A DNA stretch of 64,000 bases. Origin: Eledone cirrhosa. Lineage: Eukaryota. A program made the translations under genes and the position numbers. The notes under the pieces were generated by a model that did no database searches, was not told the origin of the DNA, and saw only the letters and a program-made list of their open reading frames with translations. Below are positions 3,001 through 49,539 of the stretch, one piece after another (the stretch's first letter is position 1; each line of letters opens with the position of its first letter). The DNA lies in assembly GCA_964016885.1 (NCBI GenBank), contig OZ024741.1, positions 195,114,001-195,178,000 of the forward strand. Direction: 5' to 3'.

Positions 3001-6000
3001 TTGTATGTGGCCTATATTATATATTGTTTGCTGCCTATGTTATATATTGTATGCTGCCTATGTTATATATTGTATGTGGCCTATATTATATATTGTATGC
3101 TGCCTATGTTATATTGTATGTGATCTATTTTATATATTGTATGCTCCCTATGTTATATATTGTATGTGCCATATGTTTTATATTGTATGCTGCCTATGTT
3201 ATATATTGTATGTGGCCTATGTTATATACTCTATGTGGCCTGTGTTATATTTTGTATGTGGCCTATGTTATAATTGAAAGTGGCCTATGTTATATATTGT
3301 ATGTGGCCTATGTTATATATTGTATGCTGACTACGTTATATATTGTATATGGCCTATGTTATATATTGTATGTGATCTACGTTATATATTGTATGCTGCC
3401 TACGCTTTATATTGTATGCTGCCTATATTATATATCGTATGTGGCCTATGTTATATACTCTATGTGGCCTGTGTTATATTTTGTATGTGGCCTATGTTAT
3501 ATATTGTATGCGGCATTGTTATATATTGTTAGTGTCCTATGTTATATATTGTATGGTGCCTATGTTATATATTGTATGCTGCCTACGTTACATATTGTAC
3601 GCTGCCTATGTTATTTAATGTATGCTGCCTATGTTATATATTGTATGTAGCCTATGTTATATATTGTATGCTGCCTATGTTATATTTTGTATGCGGCCTA
3701 AATTATATATTGCGTGCTGCCTATGTTATATATTGTATGTGGCCTGTATTATATATTGTATGTGGCCTATGTTATATATTGTTTGCTGCCTATGTTATAT
3801 ATTGTATGCTGCCTATGTTATATACCCTATGTGGCCTGTGTTATATTTTGTAAGCGGCCTACGTTATAAATTGTATGCTGCCTATTTTATATAGTGTATG
3901 TGGCCTAGGTTATATATTGTATATGGCCTATGTTATATATTGTATGCTGCCTATGTTATATACTCTATGTGGCCTATGTTTTATATTGTATGTTATCTAT
4001 GTTATATATTGTATGTTGCCTATGTTATATATTGTATGTGGCCAATGTTATATATTCTATGTGGCCTATGTTATTTATTGTAATCTGCCTACGCTATATA
4101 TTGTATGCTGCCTATGTTATATATTGTATGTGGCCTAATTTATATACTCTATGTGGCCTGTGTTATATTTTGTGTGTGGCCTATGTTATATATAGTATGT
4201 GGCCCATGTTATATATTGTATGTTGCCTATGTTATATATCGTATGCTGCCGATGTTATATATTTATGTGGCCTATGTTATATATTGTATGCTGCCTACGC
4301 TATATATTGTATGCTGCCTATGTTATATATTGTATGTGGCCTATGTTATATACTCTATGTGGTCTGTGTTATATTTTGTGCGTGGCCTATGTTATATATT
4401 GTATGCGGCATATATTTTATATTGTATGCTGCCTATTTTAAATTTTGTATGCGGCCTATGTTATACATTGTATGTGGTCTATGTTATATATATTATTCTG
4501 CCTATGTTATATATTATAATCTAACTATGTTATATATTGTATGATGCCTATGTTATATATTTTATGTGGCCTATGTTATATATTGTATTCTGTCTACGCT
4601 ATATATTGTATGCTGCCTATGTTATATATTGTATGTGGCCTATGTTATATATTGTATGCTATCTATGTTATATATTGTATGTGGCCTACGTTATATATTG
4701 TATGCTGCCTATACTATATATTGTATGTGGCCTATGTTATATACTCTATGTGGCCTGTGTTATAATTTGTGTGTGCCCTATGTTATATATTGTATGTAGC
4801 CCCTGTTATATATTGTATGCGGCATATGTTTTATATTGTATGCTGCTTATTTTATATTTTGTATGTGGGCTATGTTATATATTGTAATTCACCTATGTTA
4901 TATATATTATTCTACCTATGTTATATATTATATTCTACCTATGTTATTATTGTATGATGCCTATGTTATATATTGTATGCTGCCTATGTTATATATTGTA
5001 TGTGGCCTATGTTATATGTTGTATGTTATCTATTTATATATTGTATGCGGCATATGTTATATATTGTATGCTGCCTATGATATATATTGTATGTGGCCTG
5101 TGTTATATTTTGTACGTGGCCTATGTTATATATTTATGTGGCCTGTGTTATATTTTGTATGTGGCCTATGTTATATATTGTATGTTGCCTTTGTTATATA
5201 TTGTATGCTGCCTTCTTTATATATTATATGCTGCCTATGTTATGTACTCGATGTGGCCTGTGTTATATTTTGTATGTGGCCTATGTTATATATTGTATGT
5301 TGCCTATGTTATATATTGTATGTTGCCTATATTATATATTGTATGTGGCCTATGTTATATACTCGATGTGGCCTGTGTTATATTTTGTATGTGGCCTATG
5401 TTATATATTGTATGTTGCCTATGATATATATTGTATCTTGCCTATATTATATTTTCTGTGTTGTCTATGTTATATATTGTAAATGGCCCATGTTATATAT
5501 TGTATGCGGCATATGTTATATATTGTAATTGGCCTATGTTATATATTGTATAATGCCTATGTTATATATTGTATGTGGCCTATGTTACATATTGTATGTG
5601 GCCTATGTTATATATTGTATGCGGCATATGTTATATATTGTATGCTGCCTATGTTATATATTGTATGTGGCCTATGTTATATTTTGTATGTGGCCTATGT
5701 TATATATTGTATGCTGCTTATGTTATATATTGTATATGGCCTATGCTATATATTTTAAGCTGCCTATATTATATATTGTATATGGCCTATGTTATATATC
5801 GTAAGCTGCCTATAATATATATTGTATGTGGCCTATGTTATATATTGTATGTGGCCCATGTTATATATTGTATGAGGCCTATGTTATATATTGTATGCTG
5901 CCTATGTTATATATTGTTAGTGGCCTATGTTTTATATTGTATGTTGCCTATGTTATATATTGTATGTGGCCTATGTTATATACTCTATATGACCTGTGTT

Positions 6001-9000
6001 ATATTTTGCATGTGGCCTATGTTATATATTGTATGTTGCCTATGTTATATAATGTATGCAGCATATGTTATATATTGTATGCTGCCTATGTTATATATTG
6101 TATGCTGCCTATGTTATATATAGTATGCTGCCTATGTTATATATTGTATGTGGCCTATGTTATATATTGTATGCTGCCTATGTCAAATATTGTTTGTGGC
6201 CTATGTTATATATTGTATGCTGCCTATGTTATATATAATGTATGCTGCCTATGTTATATATTGTATGCTGCCTTTGCTATATATTGTATGTGGCCTATGT
6301 TATATATTGTATGGGGCCTATGTTATATATTGTATGCTACTTATGCTATATATTGTATGATGCCTATTGTATACATTGTATGCGGCATATGTTATATATT
6401 ATATGCGACCTATGTTATATATTGTATGCTGCCTATGTTATATATTGTATGTGGCCTATGTTATACATAGTCAGCGGCCTATGTTATATATTGTATGCTG
6501 CCTATTTTATATAGTGTATGTGGCCTAGGTTATATATTGTATATGGCCTATGTTATATATTGTATGCTGCCTATGTTATATATTGTATGTGGCCTATGTT
6601 ATATATTGTATGTGGCCTATGTTATATATTGTATGCGGCCTACGCTATATATTGTATGCTGCCTATGTTATATATTGTATGTGGCCTATGTTATATATTG
6701 TATGCTGTCTATGCTATATATTGTATGCTGCCTATGTTATATATAGTATGTGGCCTATGTTATATAATCTATGTGGCCTGTGTCATATTATGTGTGTGGC
6801 CTATGTTATATATTGTATGCTGCCTATTTTATATAGTGTATGTGGCCTAGGTTATATATTGTATATGGCCTATGTTATATATTGTATGCTGCCTATGTTA
6901 TATATTGTATGCTGCCTATTTCATATATTGTATGTGGCCTATGTTATATATTGTATGTGGCCTATGTTATATATTGTATGCTGCCTACGCTACATATTGT
7001 ATCTGCCTATGTTATATATAGTATGTGGCCTATGTTATATAATCTATGTGGCCTGTGTCATATTTTGTGTGTGGCCTATGTTATATATTGTATGTGGCCT
7101 ATGTTATATATTGTATGCGGCATAAGTTTTATATTGTATGCTGCCTATTTTATATTTTGTATTCGGACTATGTTATATATTGTAATTGGTCTATGTTATA
7201 TCTATTCTTCTGCCTATGTTATATATTATATTCTACCTATGTTATATATTGTATGCTGCCTACGTTATATATTGTATGCCGCCTATGTTATATATTGTAT
7301 GTGGCCTATGTTATATATTGTATGTGCCATATGTTATATATTGTATGTGCGATATGTTTTATATTGTATGCTGCCTATGTTATATATTGTATGTGGCCTA
7401 TGTTATATATTGTATGTGGCCTATGTTATATATTGTATGTGGCCTATGTTATATATTGTATGCGGCATATGTTATATATTTTATGCTGCCTATGTTATAT
7501 ATTGTATGTGGCCTATGTTATATATTGTATGCTGCCTACGTTATATACTGTATGCGGCCTATGTTATATATTGTATGCTGCCTATGTTATACATTGTATG
7601 CTACCTATCTTATATATTGTATGCTTTCTATATTATATATTGTATGCTGCCTATATTATATATTGTATGTGGCTTATGTTATATATAATATGCTGCCTAT
7701 GTGATATATTGTATGCTGCCTATTTTATATTTTGTAGGCGGCCTATGTTATACATTGTATTCTACCTATGTTATATATTGTATGATGCCTATGTTATATA
7801 TTGTATGTGGCCTATGTTATGTATTGTATGTGTTCAATGTTATATATTGTATGCTACCTATGTTATATATTATATGCTGCCTATGTTATATATTGTATGC
7901 TGCCTATGTTATATATTGTATGTGGCCTATGTTATATACTCTATGTGGCCTGTGTTATATTTTGTGCGTGGTTTATGTTATATATTGTATGTGGACCATG
8001 TTATATATTGTATGCGGCATATGTTTTATATTGTATGCTGCTTATTTTATATATTATATGCTGCCTATGTTATATATTGTATGCTGCCTATGTTATATAT
8101 TGTATGCTGCCTACGTATATATTGTATGCTGCCTATGTTATATATTGTATGTGGCCTATGTTATATACTCTATGTGGCCTGTGTTATATTTTGTGTGTGG
8201 TTTATGTTATATATTGTATGTGGCCCATGTTATATATTGTATGTGGCATATGTTTTATATTGTATGCTGCTTATTTTATATTCTGTATGCGGCCTATGTT
8301 ATAAATTGTAATTGCCCTATGTTATATATATTATTCTACCTATGTTATATATTATATTCTACCTATGTTATATATTATATTCTACCTATGTTATATACTG
8401 TACGATGCCTACGTTATATATTGTATGTTGTCTATGTTATATATTGTATGCTGCCTATGTTATATATTGTATGTGGCATATGTTATATATTGTATGCTGC
8501 CTATGTTATATATTGTATGTCGACTATGTTATATATTGTATGTGGCATATGTCATCTATTGTATGTGGCCCATGTTATATATTGTATGTGGCCTATGTTA
8601 TATATATTATTCTGCCTATGTTATATATTATATTCTACCTATGTTATATATTCTACGATGCCTATGTTATATATTGTATGCTGCCTATGTTATATATTGT
8701 ATGTTACCTATGTTATATATTGTATGCTGCCTACGTTATATATTGTATGTGGCCTATGTTATATATTGTATGCTACCTATGTTATATATTGTATATGGCC
8801 TATATTATATATTATATTCTACCTATGTTATATATTGTATGATGCCTATGTTATATATTGTATGTGGTCTATGTTATATATTGTATGTGTCCTATGTTAT
8901 ATGTTGTATGCTACCTATGTTACATATTGTATGTTGCCTATGTTATATATTGTATGTGGCCTATGTTATATATTGTATGCTGCCTAGGTATATATTGTAT

Positions 9001-12000
9001 GCTGCCTATGTTATATATTGTATGTGGCCTATGTTATATACTCTATGTGGCCTGTGTTATATTTTGTGTGTGGCCTATGTTATATATTATATGCTGCCTA
9101 TGTTATATATTGTATGTGCCATATGTTTTATATTGTATGCTGCCTATGTTATATATTGTATGTGGCCTATGTTATATATTGTATGTGGCCTATGTTATAT
9201 ATTGTATGCGGCATATGTTATATATTGTATGCTGCCTATGTTATATATTGTATGTGGCTTATGTTATATATTGTATGCTGCCTATGTTATACATTTATGT
9301 CGCCTATGTTATATATTGTATGCTGCCTATGTTATATATTGTTAGTGGCCTATGTTTTATATTGTATACTGCTTATATTATATATTGTATGTGGTCAATG
9401 TTATATATTGTAAGCTGCCTATATTATATATTGTATGTGGCCTATGTTATATAATGTATGCTGCCTATGTTATATATTGTATGCTGCCTTTGTTATATAT
9501 TGTATGTGGCCTATGTTATATATTGTATGGGGCCTATGTTATATATTTTATGCGACCTATGTTATATATTGTATGCTGCCTATGTTATATATTGTATGTG
9601 GCCTATGTTATACATTGTATAGGGCCTATGTTATATATTGTATGCTGCCTATTTTATATAGTGTATGTGGCCTAGGTGATATATTGTATGTGGCCTATGT
9701 TATATATTGTATGCTGCCTATGTTATATATTGTATGTGGCCTATGTTATATATTGTATTCGGCCTATGTTATATATTGTAATTGGTCTATGTTATATCTA
9801 TTATTCTGCCTATGTTATATATTATATTCTACCTATGTTATATATTGTATGATGCCTATGTTATATATTGTATGTGGCCTATGTTATATATCGTATGCGG
9901 CATATGTTATATATTGTATGCTGCCTATGTTATATAATGTATGTGGCCTATGTTATATATTGTATGTGATCTATTTTATATATTGTATGCTGCCTATGTT
10001 ATATATTGTATGTGCCATATGTTTTATATCGTATGCTGCCTATGTTATATATTGTATGTGGCCTATGTTATATAGAGTATGTGGCCTATGTTATATATTG
10101 TATGTGGCATATGTTATATATTGTATGCTGCCTATGTTATATATTGTATGTGGCCTATGTTATATATTTTATGTGGCCTATGTTATATATTGTATGCTGC
10201 CTACGTTATATATTGTATGCGGCCTATGTTATATATCGTATTCTGCCTATGTTATACATTGTATGCTACCTATCTTATATATTGTATGCTGTCTATATTA
10301 TACATTGTATGCTGCCTATGTTATATTTTGTATGTGGCTTATGTTTTATATTATATGCTGCCTATGTGATATATTGTATGTTGCCTATGTTATATATTGT
10401 ATGTTACCTATGTTATATATTGTATGTTGCATATGTTATATATTGTATGTGGCCAATGTTATATATTGTATGTGGCCCACGTTATATATTGTATGCTGCC
10501 TATGTTATATATTGTATGTGGCCTATACTATATATTATATTCTACCTATGTTATATATTGTATGCTGCCTATGTTATATACTCTATGTGGCCGGTGTTAT
10601 ATTTAGTCTGGGGCCTATGTTATATATTGTATGTGGCCCATGTTATATATTGTATGCGGCATATGTTTTATATTGTATGTCGCCTATGTCATATATTGTA
10701 TCCTGCCTATGTTATATATTGTTAGTGGCCTATGTTTTATATTCTATGCTGCCTATGTTATATATTGTATGTGGCCTATGTTATATATTGTAAGCTGCCT
10801 ATTTTATATATTGTAAGTGGCCTATGTTATATAATGTATGTTGCCTATGTTAAATATTGTATGCTGCCTTTGTTATATATTGTATGTGGCCTATGTTATA
10901 TATTGTATGGGCCCTATGTTATTTATTTTTTGTTGGCCTATGTTATATATTGTATGTGGCCTATGTTATATATTGTATGATGCCTATTGTATACATTGTA
11001 TGTGGCCTATGTTATCTATTATATGCGGCCTATGTTATATATTGTATGCTGCCTATGTTATAAATTGTATGTGGCCTATGTTATATATTGAATGTAGCCT
11101 ATGTTATACATTGTTTGCTGACTATGTAATACATTGTATGCTGCCTGTGTTATATATTGTATGCTGCCTATGTTATATATTGTATGTGGCCTATGTTATA
11201 TATTGTATGTGGCCTAATTTATAAACTCTATGTGGCCTGTGTTATATTTTGTGTGTGGCCTATGTTATATATTGTATGTGACCCATGTGATATATTGTAT
11301 GTGGCCCATGTTATATATTGTATGTTGCCTATGTTTTATATTGTATGCTGCCTATGTTATATATTGTATGTGGCCTATGTTATATATATTATTCTGCCTA
11401 TGTTATATATTATATTCTACCTATGTTATATATTGTATGATGCCTATGTTTTATATTGTATGCTGCCTATGCTATATATTGTATGTGGCCTATGTTATAT
11501 AATGTATGCTGGTTATGTTATACATTGTATGCGACATATGTTATATATTGTATGCTGCCTATGTTATACTTTGTATGCTGCCTATGTTATATATTGCATG
11601 CTGCCTATGTTATACATTGTATGTTGCCTATGTTATATATTGTATGCTGCCTATTTTATATATTGTATGCCGCCTATGTTATATACTTTTTGCGGCCTCT
11701 GTTATATATTGTATGCTGCCTATGTTATACATTGTATGCGGCCTCTGTTATATATTGTATGCTGCCTATGTTATATATTGTATGTGGCATATGTTATATA
11801 TTGTATGCCGCCTATTTTATATATTTTTTGCGGCCTCTGTTATTTATTGTCTGTTGCCTATGTTATACATTGTATGCGGCCTATGTTATACATTGTATGC
11901 AGCCTATGTTATATATTGTATGCTGCCTATTTTATATATTGTATGCTGCCTATGTTATATATTGTATGCGGCCTATGTTATATATTGTATGCTCCCTATG

Positions 12001-12078
12001 TCATATATTGTATGCTGCCTATGTTATATATTGTATGCGGCCTATGTTATATATTGTATGCGGCCTATGTTATACATT
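1..12078. repeat. 23-bp tandem satellite, consensus TTGTATG(TG/CT)GCCTATGTTATATA, about 520 copies, runs off the window start
   Basis: Unit read directly. The ORF track repeats a 23-aa period (MLPMLYIVCGLCYILYVAYVIYC = 3 x 23 nt) in all plus frames. Abrupt end near 12078. Confidence 0.97.
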
Positions 12079-12222
12079 GGAGAAAGCTATTTTAGATTTT
12101 TTTTAAACAACAGTCAAACTGAAGCTAAAATAGTAATTTATTTATAAGTTAATATTCTTTTTACTTATGTTTCATATACGCTATACATAGAGTGAAAGAG
12201 TTATAACGAACTGGACATCGAA

Positions 12223-15494: not shown

Positions 15495-15684
15495 AGGGCG
15501 GTGGATTGGCAGTATCAGTAGAGAGTCGGACGCCATGCTTTCCAGCATAGTTACGTCCCTTTACGGTCTGAGTTCAAATCCCGCCGAGGTTAACTTTGCC
15601 TTTCATCCTTACGGGGTCGGTAAAATAAAGTACCAGTAATGTACTGGGTAATTGCTGGCCTTGTGCCAAAAGTAGAAACAATTA
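15495..15684 (+). mobile_element. tRNA-derived SINE (cephalopod-type)
   Basis: A-box-like TGGCAGTATCAG, B-box GAGTTCAAATCC, body GCCTTTCATCCTTACGGGGTCG..AAGTACCAGT. Further copies at 31186, 48291 and 49140. Confidence 0.85.
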
Positions 15685-15701
15685 TATATATATATATATA
15701 T

Positions 15702-16046: not shown

Positions 16047-16061
16047 TTATATATATATATA

Positions 16062-19000
16062 TTGTTATGCTTTGGGAGGGTCATGTTGCTCATAAGAAAC
16101 ACACGCACCAGTTGTTCCACTCCAATTTATTATAAATTAAATTTATGAATTTAAGAATTTATAAATTTCCGGTTGGTTGGTTGGTTCCATAACCGGACGG
16201 TTGTTCATATAATGTCAAAGTTCTTTCGTCACACATTCTGTGACCTCTTCAGTGACTGGGGATTCTTTTCTTTGTTTTGTGCCTCTCCTTTGTTCTGTCC
16301 TACGCCATCTTGTTTTTGTGTGTGTTGTGTGCTTAGTTTGCGCATGTGTTACATCCGGGTGTCTGTGTGTGTTTTTATTTGTTTATTTATTTGTTTATTT
16401 ACATGTTACTAGTTAGTTGTTTGTTCTATGTGTGTGTGTGTGTTTTCATTTTGTCCTTAATTGTAAGTTGTAATGTTGCTATTCCATTCATGTTTTCTAT
16501 TTAATTTTGGTTGGAGTTCATTTATGTTTATTGCCTCTGTGATTTGTCTAAATATTGCGTCTTTTCTGTGTGTAGATTCTATTTTTATTTCTATGTTCAC
16601 TAATTTGCCCTTATGTTCTATTTTAGCATGTTGGTGGAGTATTGATGGTTCTTTTTTATCTTGAAGTTCTCGCCAGTTTTCATTTTACCGTTCTCCTATG
16701 CTACGAGCTGTCTCACCTATGTACACTATATTCTTATATTTACATTGTCCTTCAGTACATCTTATGCTATATACTACATTTCTAGTTTTACAGTTAATAT
16801 GGGGGCTTAGTTTACAGATTATGCATTTCTTATCTATACAGGGAGGTCTTTGAAAAGGGTATGTCTTGCTAATAAGTGTTTTTATGGAGGTACCTGGTCT
16901 TTCTACTAACTTAATATTAAGTTTATGTTTATCTAGGGCCCTTCTAAATTTGTAAGCTAATTCACCTCTAGGGGTTGTATTGATGAACATTACACTCTGG
17001 TATTTATTGCTATCATACCATGAGTTTATTCTATTAACCTTATTCCTAGTTCTTTCTATTCTATTCCAAAATTTGCTCCTATACAAGGGGCAGGTCCCAT
17101 TTGTATTATTATTTACCATTTTTTCCCATTTGGTTCTGGCTCCTCTATATACTCTGATTTTTATCTCTCTGATTGTAACCAGAGAACTGCATACGGTGGA
17201 TGATCATACGCCCCATCATTGAAATATCCCCAGATATATGTGACAGCACGGAGGACCTCCTCAACAGAATCAGCGAAAATAACCGATCTAGGGACTTAAC
17301 AGACTGTATAATAGGTAGTATGGATGTTGTATCCCTATATCCATCCATTGACGTGGATTTTGCTGTGGAGAAATGCGTAGAAATGATCAGTGAAAGCAAT
17401 GTTGAATTCCTTGGGATTGATACCAGTGGGACTCCTACTTAAACTTACCTATAGTAATGATTATCTAGATACATATGACCTTAGCAACCTGTGCCCTACA
17501 AGACCAGCAAGAGGCCAAGAAAACCCACACAGAAAGATGGAACGGGTGGACCAGAGCCATACGGACCCCCGAAAACCACGATGAACTAAAGAAAATGATT
17601 GCACATGCGGTGGGGGCCAGTATAAAATTAACCCTTAAGGAACATATGTTCAAATTTAATGGAAAAACATATGCCCAAGAGGAAGGGAGCAGCCATTGGT
17701 GTTACCATTGCAGGTGACATAGCCAACCTATTCATGGTATGGTGGGACAATAGACTTAAACTTAAACTTAAACTTAGCCTTAAAGTTTAAACTTAAACTT
17801 AAACTTAAACTTAAAGAACAATTAGAAGACAGCAACCTCTTAACCCTGATAATGTACTCCCGCTACGTTGATGATATAAACATCGTAGTAAAAACACCCC
17901 CACTAGAGAACAGTCAGGAATTAGAGAAAAACACCATGAAAAGCATCCAGCAAATAGCTAACTCCATCCACCAGAGTATTAGAGTTACTATAGACTACCC
18001 AAGCAAAGACCCCAACAATCGATTACCTGTACTAGACACAGAGTTCTGGTTAGAAACCATTAATAATAAAAAAAGAAATCCTCCATTCCCATTATGCCAA
18101 ATCCATGACTTCCAAATATCTGATCCACCGAAACTCAGCTGTTTCGGATCACACCAAAATCAACATACTGATTGCGGATTTGGTACGGGTGATGAGAAAC
18201 GTGTCCCACATGTGCAACCCCAAAGAACTAGAGACACATACAACACTTCATCTACCGTATGCAGTTCTCTGGTTACAATCAGAGAGATAAAAATCAGAGT
18301 ATATTGAGGAGCCAGAACCAAATGGGAAAAATGGTAAATAATGATACAAGTGGGACCAGCCCCTTGTATAGGAGCAAATTTTGGAATAGAATAGAAAGAA
18401 CTAGGAATAAGGTTAATAGAATAAACTCATGGCATGATAGCAATAAATACCAGAGTATAATGTTCATCAATACAACCCCTAGAGGTGAATTAGCTTACAA
18501 ATTTAGAAGGGCCCTAGATAAACATAAACTTAATATTAAGATTGTAGAAAGACCAGGTACCTCCATAAAAAACACTTATTAGCAATACATACCCTTTTCA
18601 AAGACCTCCCTGTATAGATAAGAAATGCATAATCTGTAAACTAAGCCTCCATATTAACTGTAAAACTAGAAATGTAGTATATAGCATAAGATGTACTGAG
18701 GGACAATGTAAAGATAAGAATATAGTGTACATATGTGAGACAGCTCGTAGTATAGGAGAACGATTAAATGAAAACTGGCGAGAACTTCAAGATAAAAAAG
18801 AACCATCAATACTCCACCAACATGCTAAAATAGAACATAAGGGCAAATTAGTGAACATAGAAATAAAAATAGAATCTACACACAGAAAAGACGCAATATT
18901 TAGACAAATCACAGAGGCAATAAACATAAATGAACTCCAACCAAAATTAAATAGAAAACATGAATGGAATAGCAACATTACAACTTACAATTAAGGACAA

Positions 19001-19434
19001 AATGAAAATACACACATAGAACAGACAACTAACTAGTAACATGTAAATAAACAAATAAATAAACAAATAAAAACACACACAGACACCCGGATGTAACACA
19101 TGCGCAAACTAAGCACACAACACACACACAAACAAGATGGCGTAAGACAGAACAAAGGAGAGGCACAAAACAAGGAAAAGAATCCCCAGTCACTGAAGAG
19201 GTCACAGAATGTGTGACGAAAGAACTTTGACAATATATGAACAACCGTCCGGTTATGGAACCAACCAACCGGAAATTTATAAATTCTTAAATTCATAAAT
19301 TTAATTTATAATAAATTGGAGTGAAACAACTGGTGCGTGTGTTTCTTATTGGCAACATGACCCTCCCAAAGCATAACAATATCGGTTTCAACGCAGGTTT
19401 TCAGATAAAGAATTTTGCTAAACAAATTCAGAAA

Positions 19435-19437
<3 letters not shown>
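16062..19437 (+). mobile_element. Penelope-like element (RT + GIY-YIG, frameshifted) with a 1.1-kb inverted duplication of its 3' part at the 5' end
   Basis: RT motifs IRPII, GSMDVVSLYPSI, SRYVDD; endonuclease NVVYSIRC..YIGETARSIGER. 16062-17200 is the reverse complement of ~18250-19380. HHRs at 16214-16256 (-) and 19189-19231 (+). Confidence 0.93.
19189..19231 (+). ncRNA. Minimal hammerhead in PLE pLTR (copies at 16214-16256 -, 35772-35816 -, 38032-38076 +)
   Basis: gtca-CTGAAGA-g gtcaca gaatg tgtgac-GAAA-gaac-TT^tgac. Confidence 0.8.
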
Positions 19438-19522
<85 letters not shown>

Positions 19523-28808: not shown

Positions 28809-28822
28809 GGTGTTTGTGTATT

Positions 28823-28919
<97 letters not shown>

Positions 28920-29403
28920 ATTAGTGTGTGTCTGTTATCATACAATGTATACCATGTGCTTCTTTCGTCGTCTTCAGTTCTGTGTGTTAACGGGTGTAAG
29001 TGTAGATAGATTCATTCTCTCACTGAAGATCCAGATCGATTATCTACCTTCATCGACATTTGGTGAAATGTATTCATGATTTGTTAAGGATACGTATGAG
29101 GGAAATATATATGATTTTTATCAGGCATCTATATTTTAAAGTTTTGTTAAATTTTAACATGATACTCTAACGAACTAATATTTTTACATTCTATACAGAT
29201 TATCTCTTATTAAAGTTTGATATGTCTTATTATACATTTATATCATTAGATAATTATGGGTGTATATATGTGATTCACTATTTTGTAATGATTAAATGCT
29301 CGGATTTATTCTTTGATTTTTTTCTTTTAGCTTATTTTGGGAGACAAGACACATGTTCGAGATTATCTCAAACATGACATATATAACTTTGAATGTAATA
29401 TAT

Positions 29404-29925
29404 AAGCGGTGGGAGGGACCGTCCTGACGAAGGCCAGTTAAGCCTGAAATGCATAGACGGTTGTCCCCCTTGCTTCTGCTGGACACCACTAGAGGGCGTT
29501 AGCCCCCCCCCCCCCCCCGGTGTTTTCAGAGCTACGGCTTCCTAAAACTGTATTTCTTTGGAGATACAAAATATTTATACATATTGTATAAAGCTATGCT
29601 TGAAGGGAAATCCTATTTCTTTTTTTATTATAAGTTGAGCCAACTTATGCAGCTTCATATGCAAATGAGATTAATCACCTCATTTACACAGACGAGAAAT
29701 GTATATATTCTCAGCTGTCTTTTAGTCCAGCAGTCGCAAGCGGTGGGAGGGACCGTCCTGACGAAGGCCAGTTAAGCCTGAAATGCATAGACGGTTGTCC
29801 CCCTTGCTTCTGCTGAACATCACCAGAGGGCGTTAGCCCCCCGCTGTTTGCATAGCTACGGCTTCCTAAAACTGTATTTATACATATTGTATAAAGCTAT
29901 GCTTGAAGCGAAATCCTATTTCTTT
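29404..29925 (+). mobile_element. Retrozyme-like element: two direct repeats, each with an intact hammerhead, 334-nt period
   Basis: accgtc-CTGACGA-aggc cagttaa gcct-GAAA-tgca-TA^gacggt at 29418-29461 and 29752-29795. No ORF. TA-flanked. Confidence 0.88.
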
Positions 29926-29946
29926 TATATATATATATATATATAT

Positions 29947-30078
29947 ATTCCTGATGATTTCTAAAGAATGAAACAGTTCTAGTCCTGTAGAATCTCATCT
30001 ATATTAACACTTTTATACTCTGCAATGTATTGAGTACCTTACTTATTGTGGTTACCTCCAATTCAACCCGGAATAACG
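29947..30078 (+). mobile_element. Solo pLTR 3' end with intact hammerhead, same family as the 38328-42411 PLE
   Basis: attc-CTGATGA-tttctaaagaat-GAAA-cag ttctagtc ctg-TA^gaat, then sequence matching the reverse complement of 38328-38400. Confidence 0.82.
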
Positions 30079-30123
30079 TATATATATATATATATATATA
30101 TTATATGTGTGTGTTTGGGTGTT

Positions 30124-30191
<68 letters not shown>

Positions 30192-30559
30192 GAGCTAGAG
30201 AGATATTAGTGTGTGTCTGTTATCATACAGTGTATGTGTAACTACTCAGCTGATCTTAGCTTTTTAGGCATGATATAATTACTTGAAGGAAAAATCACGC
30301 ATGTGGAAGTGCAATCGCACTGTCTAAGCCAATGTGAGATTGGAAACTAATGGTAGCCATTAAAACGTTTTGAAGATAACTATGCTATAATATTCTAGTT
30401 CTGACATTTGCATAGAGCGCTCTGTTTCCTTTATCTGTTCGACGGAATCGTTCAACACAAATCATATAGCTCACCGGGGAATGATCGATGCAATGTCTTG
30501 TCTATTGTACCAAGATTGGCATCTTTTATCCTGGCAAAGTTTAACATTCTAAAGATACA

Positions 30560-31720
30560 AGAATATACACTAACACAGCATGATGGATTTATATGAGACC
30601 TATTCCACAAAAATATACCAGAACAAACCAACATCACTTACACCGAAATGCTGATTGTACGTAGTCTGAAATGGAACACACTACTTTGCGACGGAGAGAT
30701 AGCTACCACCGCCACTGACCATTTCAATATCAAGTCAAGTCTATTGCCTCCTAGAGTTAGAGAACTAGCACCATTTGAAGCGGACTTATTACAAATGATT
30801 AAGAATATAAATTCTGTAAGTACTATAACAATTTCCAAGCTAAACTTTTACATGATATCAAATTTAAATTTTCTAAAAATATTTTTGTCTTTTCTGATTA
30901 AACTAAAAAACTCATACGAAGTAGATACACCTAAACATAATCAACTGTTACTTAATAATGTCACTAATAAATATCAGAAAGCCAAACCAACCACCTACAA
31001 TAGTATCAACAATGAAGCTAAAGATATTGCTAAACACTTAAAGATAGATAAAAGAATGGAAAGCTTAGCCAATCGTAGTCCTTATATTACTTTGAAGGAT
31101 CATAAACAAGACTTTAATAATTGTTTCCACTTTTGGCCAATCGTAGTGTTTATATTACTTTGAAGGATCATAAACAAGACTTTAATAATTGTTTCCACTT
31201 TTGGCACAAGGCCATCAATTACCCAGTACATTACTGGTACTTTATTTTATCGACCCCGTAAGGATGAAAGGCAAAGTTAACCTCGGCGGGATTTGAACTC
31301 AGACCGTAAAGGGACGTAACTATGCTGGAAAGCATGGCGTCCGACCCTCTACCGATACTGCCAATCCAGTCCTAGTTGTAGATTGATAAACCCCACTAAA
31401 ACTGAAATAGGATTAGCCAGTCAGAAGATACTAAAAGATATAAATAAATGTACAAATAGTAAAGCTAACCTATTAGAGTGGATTAATATGTCTTCATTAA
31501 TATCTTGACTTAACAATATCCCTGATAAAAATAAAGCTAGGTTCACACAATTTGACATAACGGACTTTGCTCTTTATTACTCATTCACTATTTGATAGAG
31601 CTTTAGACTTTGTTCGCAGCTTCGGCTCCGTCTCCGGCCAGGAAATAGATGTAATTATGCACACCAAAATAATATTACTGTTTATCATCGACTCCACATG
31701 GGTTAAAAAGATCAAACCCA
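30560..31720 (+). pseudogene. Decayed N-terminal/RT part of a PLE ORF (same lineage as 40029-42182), interrupted by a SINE
   Basis: KNIP, ELAPFEADLLQMIKNI, YITLKDHKQDF / PSCRLINPTKTEIG, RFTQFDI. Confidence 0.8.
31186..31368 (-). mobile_element. tRNA-derived SINE
   Basis: Reverse complement of 15500-15684. Confidence 0.87.
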
Positions 31721-32024
31721 GGAGACCAAGCCCCACGTTAAAGGAACGAAAGATGTTCACTTTGCATTAATGAGAAATACAGGATATTACAGGATTTGAA
31801 GTCTTCTACCAAATATCTGAACACAAAAACCGAGGTGTTAAGAAAATGCCCACACATTAACACAGACATGCTTGCAGCAAGGGTTAGTAATATCACGAAC
31901 TTACAACTACCTGAAATAACGACGGCAGGATACGTATAGTTACATACATATACTACGCTTCGCAAAAAAAGAATTTTTGGAATGTTTTACATATTTTTAC
32001 TGTTCTATTAATGGATTGTACTTG

Positions 32025-34090
32025 TAATTTCCTACCTCAAAATACACAAACAAAATAATCCTGGCCGTTCTATCGTTTCTGCGTGCAAATGCCCCACCGA
32101 GATAATTTCTGAATATTTAGACACCATCTTCGCCTCGTTGGTCGGCATTCTCCCTTCCCACATCCACGATGCAAATCATGCCCTTAGACTCTTCAACTCT
32201 TTCTCCTTCCCTCCTGGTCCCTCCCACCTTCTCTTTACCCTGGACATCACCTCACTCTATACCGTCATCCCTCATGATGACGGCCTCTGCGCTCTCCAAC
32301 ATTTTTTAGATTTACGTCCTACCCCTTACCCCAGCACTATCATTCTTCTCCGTCTGACTGAGCTTGTTCTCACCCTCAATGGATTTTCTTTTTCGGGTGA
32401 ATTTTATCAATAGGTCTCTAGGGTAGCGATGGGAACCAAAATGGGTCCAAACTATGCCAACTTGTTTGTTGGCTACGTCGAAGCCCAGATCTTCTCCCAG
32501 TACGCTGGACCGACTCCTGAGCTATACGGTCGTTATATCAACGACTGTATAGGCCACCTCTCTATCACGAGAACAGCTCGACTGTTTTCTTTCTTATGTC
32601 CAATCTTTCCATCCTACTCTCAATTTCACCGCCTCCGTCTCCGATTCTTCTGTCCCTTTTCTAGATATCTCTCTATCTATTAATCACTCTCACCACACCC
32701 TCTCTACTTACATCTTCATTAAACCAACAGACTCCCAATGTTACCTCGACTTCACCTCCTCCCATCCAACCCACACCACACACTCCATACCCTATTCCCA
32801 ATTCCTCCGTCTTCGTCGACTCTGTAGCCAGGACGATGATTTCGAAACCCATTCCCTTCGAATGGCTTCCTGCTTCATCCAGCGTGGATATCCCCCACCT
32901 TGATCCAAGCTGCTCTCACCCGCGCCCGTGAAACAGACCGCACCACAGCCCTCTCACCTCACCCCACCCTTCCAACACCCGTGTTCCTTTCCCTCTCACC
33001 TACCACCCGATCACCCTACCACTCCGGCGACATATCCTCCATTCCTTCCGTATCCCCTCTTCTGACCCCGTCACTTCTCGCTTTTTTCCAAACCCACCTA
33101 TTACTGCTTTTAAGCGCGCCCGCAACCTCCGCGACCTCCTGGCTCGCAGTTCCTTTTCGTCATCTCACCACTCTTACAGATCCTAACGGGTCTTTCCCTA
33201 TCCGCCATTCCTTCACCTGCACATTCCACGTTGTCTATGCCCTCCGCTGTTCCCTTTGCGGTTTTTTATATATCGGACAAACGGGACGCCGTATGGCGGA
33301 CCGTTTTGCCGAACATTTGAGGGATATACGACTCGGTTTGAATACTCCTGTCTCCCGTGATTTCTGTTCTCCTGGTCATTCTTCCCTACATGTTTCAGTC
33401 CTGGGTGTACTTTTACATCATGGATCACAGGCCTCGCGCACCAAGACTGAACAAAGTCTGATTCACCGCCTTGGGTCCTATTCTCCTCTTGGACTCAACT
33501 CACATCCCCAATTTCTCTAATACCCCGTCCATTATCACACCCCTAGATTCCTATCGCTTTCTCTTGATCATTAACAGCTTCTCTTACAATTAATACATGC
33601 CGACTATATATGCTCACTCCACTTTTCCCTTCACTGCTCTGTATACACACATACACACCCTTACATTAACACACTTTTGCTCATAGCTTCGTACTTACAA
33701 GCACACACACTCTTTTACTCACATATATGCACACACCTTTCTTCTTAGCTTCGTACGGACGTATAACACACTCACACATGCTTACGCACGTGCACAAGTA
33801 TATCTCTTTTTACAAAACGTTTTTTTTTTCCATTTCAGGTAGACGTGCTCCATCATCCACTTTTCTAAAAAATAAATCATACACAAAACGCCAGCACCAA
33901 AAGTTTTGCAAGAGATGTCAACATGAATGGACCTGTTATTTTTATCTAAAGACATGTTTTCCAATTCCATCCCACCCGTCTCCTCAATCTATCTTACTTC
34001 TCATTCTTTCTTCTGACGAAGGACTAGCCTCCGAAACGTTAGGATCATCTTCCTGCTATATCAAGCGTTAACCTAATATATCCCTTCCAT
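32025..34090 (+). mobile_element. Neptune-like PLE (RT + GIY-YIG, stops and frameshifts) with 3' pLTR hammerhead
   Basis: LPKIHK..PGR.IVS, LDITSLYTVIPH, AMGTKMGPNYANLFVG, RYIND, VVYALRCSLCGFLYIGQTGRRMADRFAEH. Confidence 0.92.
34009..34044 (+). ncRNA. Minimal PLE-type hammerhead
   Basis: tctt-CTGACGA-a gga ctagcc tcc-GAAA-cg-TT^agga; palindrome AACGTT. Confidence 0.8.
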
Positions 34091-34591
34091 ATACTGTACC
34101 GATTGTGTTGTTATTTCTGTTTTCTTTTAAGTTAAGATATTGTTACGGGCAGTGGTACAGTTTCAAAAATTTAACTGCCGTATTTCCCGGCGCCGAAGAT
34201 CCTTCGTCCTCGAGGAAGCATGGTAGATTTGTGAGACTTATTTTAGGAAAAAGGCAGCGTCTTCGACGCCGGAAATACGGTATATGCTTTTCACAGTCGG
34301 TGTTAATGAGGTGAGTCGAAGGATAAATAACGTAGTTATGGTTAGGGTAGAGAGCATAGGTTGTGTAGGTAGTGAGGATTTGATTCTTAATAGACATGAA
34401 GTTACACACTACATAACTCGTAGTGAGTTTTTGTGATAAGTACATTGTCGTACCATAATAAGTGATATGTGATGACATTAGTTAGAGAGATAGGAAATGT
34501 TTGTGATTATAGCTTTAGTGGTAAAATGACTTATATACTCGTAACGGTTCACTAGTTAAGACACTTTTGCTTGAGGTGAAGGACTTATAGA

Positions 34592-35190: not shown

Positions 35191-36077
35191 CACATATTTG
35201 ACAATGCCAGGACCCGTTGTATTTCAGCGTACTCAATAGATAATGCAGAATATATTCCAGAGTATAAACATAGTTATTCGCTCCAATACAACACACGTAA
35301 ACGGGTGCTTATATTAGTTCCCGGACTCGAGTTTTGGCCACACTTAATGCAGCAGTAGAGTGCACTGCACCCTCTGTCTGCATATATTATGAAACAATTC
35401 ATAATCGGCGCATGTGGATTCATCAGCGGGCATTGCCTAATCCTTAACCAATCGATCGACAGAATTCAACTCCAGTCCATGCCGGCTATGACTGTATGTA
35501 ACGGCCGACACAGTAAAGTGACTATATATATATATATATATATATATTTCGTTTCTGAATTTGTTTAGCAAGATTCTTTATCTGAAATCGTGTGTTGAAA
35601 CCGATATTGTTATACTTTGGGAGGGTCATGTTGCCAATAAGAAACACACGCACCAGTTGCTTTCACTTCAATTTATTATATATTTATAAATTTATAAATT
35701 TACAAATCTACAAACTTATAAATTTCTGGTTGGTTGGTTGGTTCCACAACCAGATAGTTGTTTATATATATAGTCATAGTCCTTTCGTCACACACTCTGT
35801 GACCTCTTCAGTGACTGGGGATTCCTTTCTTCGTTTCTGTGCCTTTTCTTTTTTTATCCTACGCCATTTTGTTTCTGTGTGTGTGTGTTGTGTGCTCAGT
35901 TTGCGCATGTGCCACATCCGGGTGTCTGTGTGTGTTTGTGTTCATTTTTCTATTTGTTTATTTATTTATTGTTGGTTGGTTGTTTGTTCTATGTGTGTGT
36001 GTGTTTTCATTTTGTCCTGTGTGTGTTTTCAATTGTAAGTTGTTTGTTCTATGTGTGTGTGTGTTTTCATTTTGTCC

Positions 36078-36929
36078 TTAATTGTAAGTTGTGATGTTGC
36101 TGTTCCACTCATATTTTCTATTTAATTTTGGTTTTAATTCTTTTATGCTTACTGCCTCTGTAATTTGCCTAAACATTGCGTCTTTTCTGTGTGTGGATTC
36201 TATTTTTATTTCTATGCTCTCTAATCTACCCCTGTGTTCCATCTTAGCATGTTGGTAGAGCACAGATGATTCTTTATTATCTTGGAGGTCTCGCCAGTGT
36301 TCATTTATTCGTTCCCCTATACTACGAGCTGTCTCACCTATGTACACTATATTTTTGTTTCTACATTGTCCCTCAGTACATCTTATGCTATACACTACAT
36401 TTCTAGTTTTACAGTTAATATGGGGGCTTATTTTACAGGTTATACATTTCTTATCTATACATGAGGGTCTTTGGAACGGGTATGTCTTGCTAATAAGTGT
36501 TTTTACGGAGGTACCAGGTCTTTCTACTATCTTAATATTGAGATTATGTTTATTTAGGGCCCTTCTAAATTTGTAGGCTAGTTCGCCTCTAGGGGTTGTA
36601 TTGATGAACATTACACTCTGGTATTTATTGCTATCATACCATGAGTTTATTCTATTGGCCTTGTTCCTAGTTCTTTCTATTCTATTCCAAAATTTGCTCC
36701 TATACAAGGGGCAGGTCCCATTTATGTCATTATTTACCATTTTTTCCCATTTGGTTCTGGCTCCGTTATACACTCTGATTCTATCTCTCTGATTGTAGCC
36801 AGAGAACTGCATACGGTGGATGAAGTGTTGTATGTGTCTCTCTAGTTCTTCGGGGTTGCACATGCGGGACACATTTCTCATCACCCGTACCAAATCCGCA
36901 ATCAGTATGTTGATTTTGGTATGGACCAT
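36078..36929 (-). CDS. Mirror 283-aa PLE GIY-YIG ORF
   Basis: Inverted copy differing at three residues (V/D, A/T, N/K). Confidence 0.7.
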   Translation of the reverse strand: MVHTKINILIADLVRVMRNVSRMCNPEELERHIQHFIHRMQFSGYNQRDRIRVYNGARTKWEKMVNNDINGTCPLYRSKFWNRIERTRNKANRINSWYDSNKYQSVMFINTTPRGELAYKFRRALNKHNLNIKIVERPGTSVKTLISKTYPFQRPSCIDKKCITCKISPHINCKTRNVVYSIRCTEGQCRNKNIVYIGETARSIGERINEHWRDLQDNKESSVLYQHAKMEHRGRLESIEIKIESTHRKDAMFRQITEAVSIKELKPKLNRKYEWNSNITTYN

Positions 36930-37772
36930 ACCAAAATCAACATACTGATTACGGATTTGGTACGGGTGATGAGAAATGTGTCCCGCATGTGCAACCCCGA
37001 AGAACTAGAGAGACACATACAACACTTCATCCACCGTATGCAGTTCTCTGGCTACAATCAGAGAGATAGAATCAGAGTGTATAAAGGAGCCAGAACCAAA
37101 TGGGAAAAAATGGTAAATAATGACATAAATGGGACCTGCCCCTTGTATAGGAGCAAATTTTGGAATAGAATAGAAAGAACTAGGAACAAGGCCAATAGAA
37201 TAAACTCATGGTATGATAGCAATAAATACCAGAGTGTAATGTTCATCAATACAACCCCTAGAGGCGAACTAGCCTACAAATTTAGAAGGGCCCTAAATAA
37301 ACATAATCTCAATATTAAGATAGTAGAAAGACCTGGTACCTCCGTAAAAACACTTATTAGCAAGACATACCCGTTCCAAAGACCCTCATGTATAGATAAG
37401 AAATGTATAACCTGTAAAATAAGCCCCCATATTAACTGTAAAACTAGAAATGTAGTGTATAGCATAAGATGTACTGAGGGACAATGTAGAAACAAAAATA
37501 TAGTGTACATAGGTGAGACAGCTCGTAGTATAGGGGAACGAATAAATGAACACTGGCGAGACCTCCAAGATAATAAAGAATCATCTGTGCTCTACCAACA
37601 TGCTAAGATGGAACACAGGGGTAGATTAGAGAGCATAGAAATAAAAATAGAATCCACACACAGAAAAGACGCAATGTTTAGGCAAATTACAGAGGCAGTA
37701 AGCATAAAAGAATTAAAACCAAAATTAAATAGAAAATATGAGTGGAACAGCAACATCACAACTTACAATTAA
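36921..37772 (+). CDS. 283-aa PLE C-terminal ORF (thumb/linker + GIY-YIG endonuclease, no RT core)
   Basis: Uninterrupted ORF: C-x4-C-x2-C..C, NVVYSIRC, YIGETARSIGERINEH, RQITEAV, LNRK. Confidence 0.7.
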   Translation: MDHTKINILITDLVRVMRNVSRMCNPEELERHIQHFIHRMQFSGYNQRDRIRVYKGARTKWEKMVNNDINGTCPLYRSKFWNRIERTRNKANRINSWYDSNKYQSVMFINTTPRGELAYKFRRALNKHNLNIKIVERPGTSVKTLISKTYPFQRPSCIDKKCITCKISPHINCKTRNVVYSIRCTEGQCRNKNIVYIGETARSIGERINEHWRDLQDNKESSVLYQHAKMEHRGRLESIEIKIESTHRKDAMFRQITEAVSIKELKPKLNRKYEWNSNITTYN

Positions 37773-38869
37773 GGACAAAATGAAAACACACACACACATA
37801 GAACAAACAACTTACAATTGAAAACACACACAGGACAAAATGAAAACACACACACACATAGAACAAACAACCAACCAACAATAAATAAATAAACAAATAG
37901 AAAAATGAACACAAACACACACAGACACCCGGATGTGGCACATGCGCAAACTGAGCACACAACACACACACAGAAACAAAATGGCGTAGGATAAAAAAAG
38001 AAAAGGCACAGAAACGAAGAGAGGAATCCCCAGTCACTGAAGAGGTCACAGAGTGTGTGACGAAAGGACTATGACTATATATATAAACAACTATCTGGTT
38101 GTGGAACCAATCAACCAACCAGAAATTTATAAGTTTGTAGATTTCTAAATTTATAAATTTATAAATATATAATAAATTGAAGTGAAAGCAACTGGTGCGT
38201 GTGTTTCTTATTGGCAACATGACCCTCCCAAAGTATAACAATATCGGTTTCAACACACGATTTCAGATAAAGAATCTTGCTAAACAAATTCAGAAACGAA
38301 ATATATATATATATATATATATATAATTATTCCGGGTTCAATCGGGGGTAACCACAGTAAGTAGGGTACTCAATACATAGAGTATAAATGTTTTAATATA
38401 GAAAAGCTTCTATAGGACTAGAACTGTTTCATTCGTGAGAAATCATAAGGAAGCTGACTGTCCAAGTAAGTAGTGGTATTTATATCTGTTCTTTTCTGGT
38501 AGTAGGAGAGGGTGGGGATTGGGATGGGTGGAGGTCATTGGTTGATGGGTTTAAAGAAAATTGAATTCATTAAAAGCTAATTCTTTAAAGCTATCATTTA
38601 TACTAAGAGTGACAAAGGCAGAAAAAATACGGTAAATAGGTTTAAATTGGAATACCAATCCTTGTTTTTAAGTATCTCTTAAACTAACAAAGCCTGTATG
38701 TCAGGTGTCTACAGGATGGGTAGGGTTCATTGGTTTAAAGAAAAGGGAATTCTTTAAAGCTGAATTTAGGATGACAAAGGCATAAAGAAATCTATAAAGA
38801 GGTTCAAGTTTTGGGGTGCTTCCCCTTATTGTGAAGTTTCTCTTAAGCTATATTCCGGGTGTCGGCAAG

Positions 38870-42360: not shown

Positions 42361-42409
42361 AGCTTCCTAATGATTTCTCACGAATGAAACAGTTCTAGTC
42401 CTGTAGAAG

Positions 42410-42411
<2 letters not shown>
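42361..42411 (+). ncRNA. Hammerhead in inverted pLTR (core CTAATGA; partner at 38405-38455 - has CTTATGA)
   Basis: agcttc-CTAATGA-tttctcacgaat-GAAA-cag..ctg-TA^gaagct. Confidence 0.75.
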
Positions 42412-42499
<88 letters not shown>

Positions 42500-48350: not shown

Positions 48351-49139
48351 AAGATAATTATAATGAAAAAATATTATGATGAAAAAAATATTATGATGAA
48401 AAAATATTATAATGAAAAAATATTATAATGAAAAAATAAATAAATAGATGCCTGTAATCCTTAGCTATATGTAACGTAGATATTGTATAGTTATAGTTTA
48501 ACTGGTTCGAAATTTCTGGAAGCATGATAGCCGTACATCTCGCTAGTTCCCCGTTTAATCAAGCTCCACACGTTACATCCAGATGTCCGATTCCTTGCCA
48601 CCAGTAGACTCATGCACTCGATGAGCGGGACATCAAAGTGAAATTTATAGGGAATATCCTGGAGGGGCTTGGAGAGTAGGATTGTTCCAGTTTGCTTCAA
48701 ATACCCGTGAAACCGATTAAGGTCTCCGGGCCAAGATGTCTGACAGGTGAGGAGCTATTAGGTGGTTCCTTTCACAATTAAATAGTGTAGGCTAACCAAG
48801 GTATCTTAAAGTGATTATCAAAATAAGACACGCGAAGAAGAGTTAGAGATAAATTAAAATACAGTAAATTGGATGTAGGCTGACTTAAGGTAACTTAAAG
48901 GAAATATCAGAATAAGACACATGAGGATGAATAAGAGATAAATTAAAGTTAAAGATTGAGTTAATTAGGGTTGGTTCACAGTTGTACAGTATAAGAGAAA
49001 AAGCATAGTATATAACAATATACGAGATAAAAGGATATGGAGTAAAAAAAAATGATAAGTACATATGATATAATAAAGGCAAGGAAATAGACGGCATCCG
49101 TACAAGGTTATCCAAACGGCTAGAAATATGTCTAAATAT

Positions 49140-49305
49140 ATAATTGTTTCTACTTTAGGCACAAGGCCAGTAATTACTCAGTGCATTACTGGTACTTTTA
49201 TTTTATCGACCCCGTAAGAATGAAAGGCAAAGTCAACCTCGGCGGGATTTGAACTCAGATTTGAACTGGAAAGCATGGCGTCCGACCCTCTACCGATACT
49301 GCCAA
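49140..49305 (-). mobile_element. tRNA-derived SINE with internal deletion
   Basis: Matches the reverse complement of 15500-15684. Confidence 0.85.
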
Positions 49306-49539
49306 TATAATGAGGATTGGGAAGATAGATAGGGTAAAATAAAGAGATGTCTTAACGAAGATAGTTTTTGTATCTTTAAACCCAATATTATTATGTTTTT
49401 AGAACGTATTCCTCCTGCTTATTTTCATTTCATTTCGTTTTGTCACGTGATTTCCTTATTTGATTCAATAAAGTGAACAGAAGGAAGGTCCAAACAACCG
49501 TCAAAAATAAAAAGATGTGAAAGTGTGTATCCTCTAAAT

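What the first reader, a model, noticed from the sequence alone, without database searches (positions are those of the whole stretch)
29404..29925. Two identical intact minimal hammerheads 334 nt apart in an ORF-less TA-flanked insert
The direct repeats each carry accgtc-CTGACGA-aggc/gcct-GAAA-TGCA-TA^gacggt. Double cleavage would release a 334-nt monomer able to circularise. The palindromic stem III (ATGCAT) is too short for a monomer but suits the known dimeric HHR fold using both copies. This is the architecture of metazoan non-LTR retrozymes.
Basis: partly seen in the sequence, partly recalled or inferred. Interest (0 to 1): 0.72.

Follow-up and report, generated by a model that had tools for sequence, protein, structure and literature searches.

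The report
Animal retrozyme insert with paired hammerheads
The two self-cutting RNA motifs are real and belong to an abundant non-coding jumping element of a known kind (a retrozyme), here probably in a cephalopod, but cutting and RNA circles have not been shown.

Summary
Confirmed. Two identical type I hammerheads (cores 29424 and 29758) lie 334 nt apart in a 522-nt ORF-less insert that ends in (TA)11. The insert is a 1.66-unit head-to-tail tandem, not two LTRs around a unique centre.

The hammerhead has canonical helix sizes (6 and 4 bp), so 'minimal' is the wrong label; it differs from the Penelope (PLE)-type motifs elsewhere in the window. Helix III is a short palindrome. Unconstrained folding of the insert gives the double-hammerhead as its lowest-energy fold. 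The 334-nt circle folds better than 150 of 150 shuffles.

Public contigs show a very abundant family (depth 67 times the left flank). Other copies bridge both unit junctions, one junction also in a second organism, so the unit exists without an ORF.

Best reading: a metazoan non-LTR retrozyme moved by a PLE into TA repeats, with an amphibian-like, dimer-dependent ribozyme. Cleavage, transcription, circles and the partner PLE are all inferred, and no genome was available. This is a new member of a known kind.

The parts
29404..29925 (+). Whole insert: about 1.66 units of a ~330-nt non-coding repeat
   Evidence: summed contig depth steps up at 29400
29404..29623 (+). Copy 1: partial unit lacking the spacer at its 5' side, with an expanded C-run near 29503-29518
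29418..29461 (+). Hammerhead 1: helix I 29418-29423/29456-29461, core 29424-29430, helix II 29431-29434/29442-29445 with a 7-nt loop, GAAA 29446-29449, palindrome 29449-29454, cleavage after 29455
29456..29789 (+). Predicted 334-nt monomer between the two cleavage sites (GC 44%); circle fold z = -4.5
29624..29737 (+). 'Spacer': the part of the unit present once in this insert; 29725-29733 pairs with 29476-29484 (9 bp, probability 1.0 in the circle) and extends the helix I arm
   Evidence: as deep as the two repeats summed
29738..29925 (+). Copy 2: lacks 21 nt that cover most of the hairpin 29549-29568; ends at the TA tract
29752..29795 (+). Hammerhead 2, identical to hammerhead 1; cleavage after 29789
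29398..29403 (.). Short AT run at the 5' junction, at the end of an older, less abundant repeat
29926..29947 (.). (TA)11 at the 3' junction, the likely target tract; another locus also breaks off at the equivalent point (29623) into AT repeats
   Evidence: run X8 loose end, 230 reads
29486..29498 (+). CTCF-like motif (consensus recalled from memory); function untested
   Evidence: 1 match in the window, 2 of 100 shuffles reach it

Best explanation
This is one insertion of an abundant metazoan non-LTR retrozyme family: a ~330-nt non-coding unit with one canonical type I hammerhead. SHOWN: the anatomy, the lack of an ORF, the multi-copy family, continuity of both unit junctions in other copies, and a 3' end at a TA tract. 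COMPUTED: a transcript with two units can fold into a double hammerhead in which the two AUGCAU palindromes pair to make helix III; one copy alone cannot form it; the released unit folds compactly with its ends held together by a long helix I arm. INFERRED from known retrozymes and PLEs: read-through transcription, two cuts at AUA^G, release of a 334-nt monomer, ligation by a host RtcB-type ligase, then more-than-unit reverse transcription and insertion into (TA)n by a PLE reverse transcriptase and GIY-YIG endonuclease.
For: Helix I of 6 bp and helix II of 4 bp, with a short palindromic helix III, match the canonical metazoan HHR (PMC4209133). The motifs behind GIY-YIG ORFs in this window have min-HHR geometry instead: a bulged base and helix I of 4-5 bp. 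Loop 1 starts with U and loop 2 ends in A with a C:A opposition as in Schistosoma (PMC2632901). Inter-copy helix III is in the lowest-energy fold in 4 of 6 contexts, with probability 0.17-0.59; in a single copy it is 0.0. The circle scores -100.3 kcal/mol, z = -4.5, with 0 of 150 shuffles as good, and is more extreme than 36 of 36 control tiles. In run X1 the median depth is 65,385 inside (14 bins) against 971 on the left (12 bins). Junction-bridging contigs: X1 record 8 and X4 records 14-16 cross spacer to HHR; X4 record 12 and X5 record 18 (organism B) cross copy end to spacer. A young GIY-YIG PLE with a CxxC linker that ends at (TA)n lies in the same window.
Against: There is no direct test of cleavage, transcription or circles. 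In the Xenopus study 8 of 9 predicted retrozyme dimers did not cleave. AUA was the slowest of four triplets tested (PMC1636495 abstract). The extrahelical pyrimidine of loop 1 is missing, since that strand is all purine. The double fold wins by only 1.3 kcal/mol, and any tandem with this palindrome would tend to give it. The reverse strand folds as well (z = -5.8), and two control tiles come close (-4.3 and -4.4). Pairing is 61%, below the >70% quoted for retrozymes. Depth in the spacer-to-HHR junction bin (48,430) is a third of the spacer's (~152,000), and X4 record 13 leaves the unit after the spacer. No partner PLE with shared ends was found.
Confidence: 0.65

Rival explanations
1. It is the same non-coding family, but the ribozyme is weak or idle. 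The unit is a non-autonomous PLE derivative copied from uncleaved linear tandem transcripts, with no circular intermediate.
For: The insert spans two intact cleavage sites, which an uncleaved linear template explains directly. HHR mutants did not affect insertion by an anole PLE in vitro (PMC11167929). 8 of 9 Xenopus dimers were inactive. The AUA triplet is slow and the loop-loop motif is only partly present.
Against: The core is perfect and the helix sizes are canonical. A 9-bp helix ties the spacer to the post-cleavage arm. None of the 40 best-supported variant rows shown (of 421) lies in the HHR. The axolotl HHR with the same helix III design cleaves as a dimer and gives circles.
Confidence: 0.2
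2. The locus is only a partial tandem of truncated ends (pLTRs) of a coding Penelope-like element.
For: The window is rich in PLEs and hammerheads. Partial tandems and TA targeting are PLE traits. Depth dips at the spacer-to-HHR junction, and X4 record 13 continues for 427 nt in other sequence. The unit has a weak AT-rich likeness to a window PLE 3' region: 4 of 1000 shuffles, best of 13 regions tried.
Against: Both junctions are bridged in other, diverged copies, so neither is private to this locus. The HHR geometry differs from that of the window's PLE motifs. The unit occurs nowhere else in the window. The neighbouring ORF remnant at about 30480-31760 is heavily broken and separated from the insert by other repeats.
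Confidence: 0.11
3. A single HHR-bearing repeat was duplicated locally at the DNA level, or the unit is a DNA-amplified minisatellite.
For: The copies differ by slippage-like gaps. The folding signal is present on both strands.
Against: The unit is dispersed at very high depth, has a recurring 3' end at TA, and is present in a second organism.
Confidence: 0.04

Closest known systems
Metazoan non-LTR retrozymes (Cervera & de la Pena 2020, PMC7229834; Li, Clavereau & Pollet 2026, bioRxiv 10.64898/2026.07.22.740005)
   Same: ORF-less tandem unit of 150-450 nt, GC under 50%, a canonical-size type I HHR per unit, high copy number, a structured monomer, co-existence with PLEs, and a ~20-nt indel variant as in the coral family.
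   Different: Only 1.66 units at this locus; ends in a TA tract with no visible long TSD; RNA and circles not shown; host probably a cephalopod, for which my library searches found no retrozyme report.
Axolotl/newt satellite-type HHR (HHR_Amex1, PMC7229834)
   Same: One-pair helix III closed by a palindromic tetraloop, expected to work as a dimer; unit of about 330 nt.
   Different: Found here in what looks like an invertebrate, whereas most invertebrate retrozyme HHRs are described as active monomers; AUA site; loop-loop motif only partly met.
Minimal HHRs in pLTRs of Penelope-like elements (PMC4209133)
   Same: Type I topology, palindromic helix III, partial-tandem layout; microsatellite targeting as described for PLEs (PMC8557442).
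   Different: No bulged base before helix II, helix II 4 bp rather than 7-8, helix I 6 bp with an outer arm, A-U rather than G-C at 10.1-11.1, and no ORF between the copies.
Plant LTR retrozymes (PMC4918200)
   Same: Two HHRs bounding a non-coding monomer.
   Different: Those have type III HHRs, true LTRs, PBS/PPT and 4-bp TSDs; this has a type I HHR and no TSD (PBS/PPT not searched).

Membership tests
Metazoan non-LTR retrozyme | Tandem unit of 150-450 nt with at least two consecutive complete HHRs | tested here: met
   334-nt period, two intact HHRs, 1.66 units
Metazoan non-LTR retrozyme | Canonical type I HHR (helix I 6 bp, helix II 4 bp, short palindromic helix III) | tested here: met
   against the definition
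Metazoan non-LTR retrozyme | Loop 1-loop 2 tertiary motif (5' U, 3' A, extrahelical pyrimidine) | tested here: inconclusive
   U and A are present, the pyrimidine is absent; mussel retrozymes also lack most of these bases
Metazoan non-LTR retrozyme | No coding capacity; GC under 50% | tested here: met
   longest ATG ORF 59 aa; GC 44%
Metazoan non-LTR retrozyme | Multi-copy family in the genome | tested here: met
   depth 67 times the left flank; diverged copies bridge both junctions; no exact copy number
Metazoan non-LTR retrozyme | Stable, highly self-paired monomer | tested here: met
   z = -4.5, 0 of 150 shuffles, 61% paired; beyond 36 of 36 control tiles; not strand-specific
Metazoan non-LTR retrozyme | Longer arrays (trimers and up) somewhere in the genome | not testable with these tools
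   no genome held; short contigs cannot count units
Metazoan non-LTR retrozyme | Self-cleavage; linear and circular RNA in tissue | not testable with these tools
   needs bench work or RNA reads of this species
Metazoan non-LTR retrozyme | Long TSD when present | tested here: inconclusive
   only TA-type matches of up to 7 nt between the flanks; a TA target hides a TSD
pLTR of an autonomous PLE | RT and GIY-YIG ORF between or next to the repeats | tested here: not met
   114 non-coding nt between the copies; no match to other window PLE ends; other loci not visible
pLTR of an autonomous PLE | min-HHR geometry (bulge before helix II, G10.1-C11.1, long helix II, short helix I) | tested here: not met
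Plant LTR retrozyme | Type III HHR and 4-bp TSD | tested here: not met
   type I; no TSD

The most novel reading that the evidence does not exclude
This is the first described cephalopod retrozyme: a family of order ten thousand copies that yields an abundant ~330-nt circular RNA through an obligate double hammerhead, a design so far stressed for amphibians. It may also have spread a CTCF-like site through the genome, and its double-stranded arms would be natural targets in an animal group known for heavy A-to-I editing (recalled, not tested).
Probability: 0.25. Interest if true: 0.55.

Novelty: new member of a known kind. Interest (0 to 1): 0.33.

Why it matters
If confirmed, it extends retrozymes to another animal group and supplies a clean two-copy construct for testing dimer-dependent cleavage. 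A young, TA-ending PLE nearby is a candidate for the still unproven partnership between PLEs and retrozymes. The class itself is already described in corals, mussels, amphibians and many vertebrates, so a specialist would find it useful rather than surprising.

Tried and rejected
No whole genome is held, so there was no copy count, array length or partner search.

Rfam gave 0 matches at the gathering score and 8 sub-threshold, unrelated matches at E<=10.

The HHR pattern gave 0 matches in viral contigs and 2 in metagenome contigs. Both look bacterial or phage-like and share only the pattern, so they were dropped.

No RNA holder was listed; this says nothing about expression. The kind of run X4 is not on record, so it was not read as RNA.

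The octamer at 29659 is not above chance: 8 seen, 7.2 expected.

All 7 substitutions fall outside the first 78 nt, p = 0.02 with a boundary chosen afterwards; this was not used as evidence of selection.

Majority variants from other copies showed no compensatory pattern: of 7 sites, 3 are paired in the fold and the variant letter pairs at 1.

The search for a partner PLE over 13 window regions gave no convincing homology.

The Atlas hit for the ORF at 30597 (phage integrase, 0.91, few shared features) was rejected as weak; its PLE-like nature is my recollection only.

Earlier scan notes gave nothing by sequence, by place or for cephalopod words. Paper search was uninformative: none of the 30 listed of 2,691 papers contained 'retrozyme'.

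Full report
OBSERVATION. The cores start at 29424 and 29758, and the predicted cleavage sites (AUA^G) are after 29455 and 29789, 334 nt apart. A 17-letter HHR pattern matches twice in the window against 0.06 expected. A structural descriptor found 13 hammerhead-like motifs in the window against a mean of 0.03 in 200 block shuffles. The copies are identical for 78 nt. Over the full repeat (29404-29623 against 29738-29925) there are 181 matches, 7 substitutions and gaps of 10, 21 and 1 nt. The longest ATG ORF is 59 aa. The right flank is (TA)11; the left is only ATATAT, with no other duplication. Rfam misses the motif.

ANATOMY OF THE RIBOZYME. Helix I is 6 bp, followed by an internal loop and a long outer arm. 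Helix II is 4 bp with a 7-nt loop. Helix III is one pair around a palindromic tetraloop. PMC4209133 (parts 1-2 of 4 read) calls this size pattern canonical, and describes PLE min-HHRs as having a longer helix II, a shorter helix I and a bulged base. In this window the five motifs in PLE-like settings (16252, 19193, 34013, 35811, 38037) have the bulge and a helix I of 4-5 bp. Those at 34013, 35811 and 38037 lie behind ORFs with GIY-YIG hits just under Pfam's cut-off (2 such hits among 44 ORFs scanned); 16252 and 19193 lie in an 85% similar copy. So the finding's HHR is of the retrozyme type, and 'minimal' is a misnomer. Of the loop-loop motif in PMC2632901 (passages), the 5' U of loop 1 and the 3' A of loop 2 are present, with the C:A opposition seen in Schistosoma, but the extrahelical pyrimidine is absent. 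AUA occurs naturally but was the slowest of four triplets (PMC1636495, abstract).

FOLDING. With no constraints, the lowest-energy fold of the 522-nt insert is the double hammerhead: swapped helix I strands and a 6-bp helix III between the two palindromes. This held in 4 of 6 contexts, with probability 0.17-0.59. The margin is only 1.3 kcal/mol, and in a one-copy transcript the closing pair of helix III has probability 0.0. This shows that the fold is accessible, not that it cleaves; a tandem of this palindrome would favour it anyway. The 334-nt circle scores -100.3 kcal/mol, z = -4.5, with 0 of 150 shuffles as good and 61% of bases paired. None of 36 control tiles, drawn from 83 candidates, reached -4.4, though two reached -4.3 and -4.4 after rounding. 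The reverse strand scores z = -5.8, so the signal is not strand-specific. A 9-bp helix (29476-29484 with 29725-29733, probability 1.0) ties the spacer to the sequence after the cleavage site and holds the monomer's ends together.

THE FAMILY. No genome is held. Ten runs were listed and four were laid. In X1, summed contig depth rises from a median of 971 in 12 left-flank bins to 65,385 in 14 inside bins. The right flank is a different, still deeper repeat (up to 1.46 million). The tool warns that this is no copy number; set against listed contigs of depth 4.6-10 it suggests an order of ten thousand copies, roughly. The spacer (about 152,000) is as deep as the two HHR bins together (162,578), so it belongs to the unit. 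Among the 24 pieces shown of over 10,000, both junctions are bridged. X1 record 8 (29638-29872, 37 differences) and X4 records 14-16 cross spacer to HHR. X4 record 12 and X5 record 18, from a second organism, cross copy end to spacer. In the RAD run X8, 230 reads break off at 29623 into AT repeats, so at least one other locus ends where this insert ends. Against this: the junction bin 29705-29742 is only 48,430 deep, and X4 record 13 matches the spacer and then runs 427 nt into other sequence. Private changes of this copy at 29700, 29701 and 29722 may explain the dip, but a longer parent element is not excluded. Only 40 of 421 variant rows were shown; none lies in the HHR.

SURROUNDINGS. The window is an AT-rich, microsatellite-rich animal sequence with several PLE remnants and large inverted repeats. 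A hairpin at 35523-38325 (arms 99.5% identical) encodes an RT-end, CxxC and GIY-YIG piece and ends at (TA)n. PMC8557442 (passages) links such a linker to microsatellite targeting in Neptune PLEs; calling this element Neptune-like is my inference. Its best homolog, and the only one of 37 with a species name, is an Octopus bimaculoides protein at 56% identity. The host is therefore probably a cephalopod, on thin evidence. No window PLE shares clear ends with the unit. The best of 13 regions gave an AT-rich alignment reached by 4 of 1000 shuffles, which I do not count.

MECHANISM. Shown: structure, family, closed unit, TA end. Computed: dimer-only helix III and a compact monomer. Inferred from PMC7229834 (passages, Results parts 1-2 of 3 and Discussion; supplement unreadable): transcription across two units, double cleavage, RtcB-type ligation, and PLE-driven more-than-unit reverse transcription into (TA)n. 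The axolotl HHR_Amex1 has the same helix III design and cleaves much better as a dimer. Reasons for caution are that 8 of 9 Xenopus dimers did not cleave (bioRxiv 10.64898/2026.07.22.740005, parts 1-3 of 5 read), and that an anole PLE inserted normally with HHR mutants (PMC11167929, passages). The same preprint argues that animal retrozymes are non-autonomous PLE derivatives, so 'retrozyme' and 'PLE derivative' are largely one answer; the open point is whether this unit makes circles.

NOVELTY. Searches for hammerhead with cephalopod, octopus with Penelope and ribozyme, and retrozyme with octopus listed no paper whose title or abstract start describes a cephalopod retrozyme. The giant squid genome paper counts 235 hammerhead matches without analysis (PMC6962438, passages). 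Passage searches of PMC7229834, PMC7761336, PMC5680766 and PMC4918200 found no octopus mention, and the two also searched for 'cephalopod' had none. The library lacks most subscription papers, and the unread supplement of PMC7229834 may list such species. Earlier scan notes report similar loci in other genomes, mostly judged ordinary; I did not check them.

VERDICT. Real, and correctly read in the main: a new member of a known kind, with an amphibian-like dimer-dependent ribozyme as its one mild twist. Interest 0.33.

Noticed in passing
window 15385, 16252, 19193, 34013, 35811, 38037, 52542, 52654, 53871, 57352, 57879: Eleven further hammerhead-like motifs of at least five designs, several as inverted pairs; a related core at 63541 lacks helix I in the scan.
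   Followed up: partly
window 35523-38325 and 16059-19463: Large inverted-repeat PLE insertions; the first has arms 99.5% identical, a GIY-YIG ORF with a CxxC linker and TA ends, and is a candidate mobiliser.
   Followed up: partly
window 29948-30080 (also 38303-38452 on the minus strand, 42364-42420): An extremely abundant short repeat (summed depth up to 1.46 million in X1) sitting between TA tracts. It carries a hammerhead-core-like CTGATGA...GAAA with no clear helix I, and a T-loop-like end on the minus strand (my reading by eye).
   Followed up: no
window 29486-29498: A CTCF-like motif inside the unit (consensus recalled); 1 match in the window, 2 of 100 shuffles; copy 2 differs at one position.
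   Followed up: partly
window 32060-34100: A decayed PLE with RT-like and GIY-YIG pieces and a min-HHR at 34013.
   Followed up: no
window 30480-31760: A broken ORF that looks PLE-like from memory, with a 68-nt tandem duplication and an inserted short repeat (31185-31368, also at 15502-15685 and 49123-49306); Pfam and the Atlas were uninformative.
   Followed up: partly
window 28819-28950 and 30104-30235: A microsatellite-plus-unique segment duplicated on both sides of the insert region, 87% identical, 1285 nt apart.
   Followed up: no
window 3-12079: A 12-kb satellite of a 23-nt unit, about 526 copies.
   Followed up: no
L001 2490-2560: A hammerhead-core-like sequence inside a 227-nt repeat next to an integrase-like ORF in a bacterial-looking contig; unrelated to the finding.
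   Followed up: no
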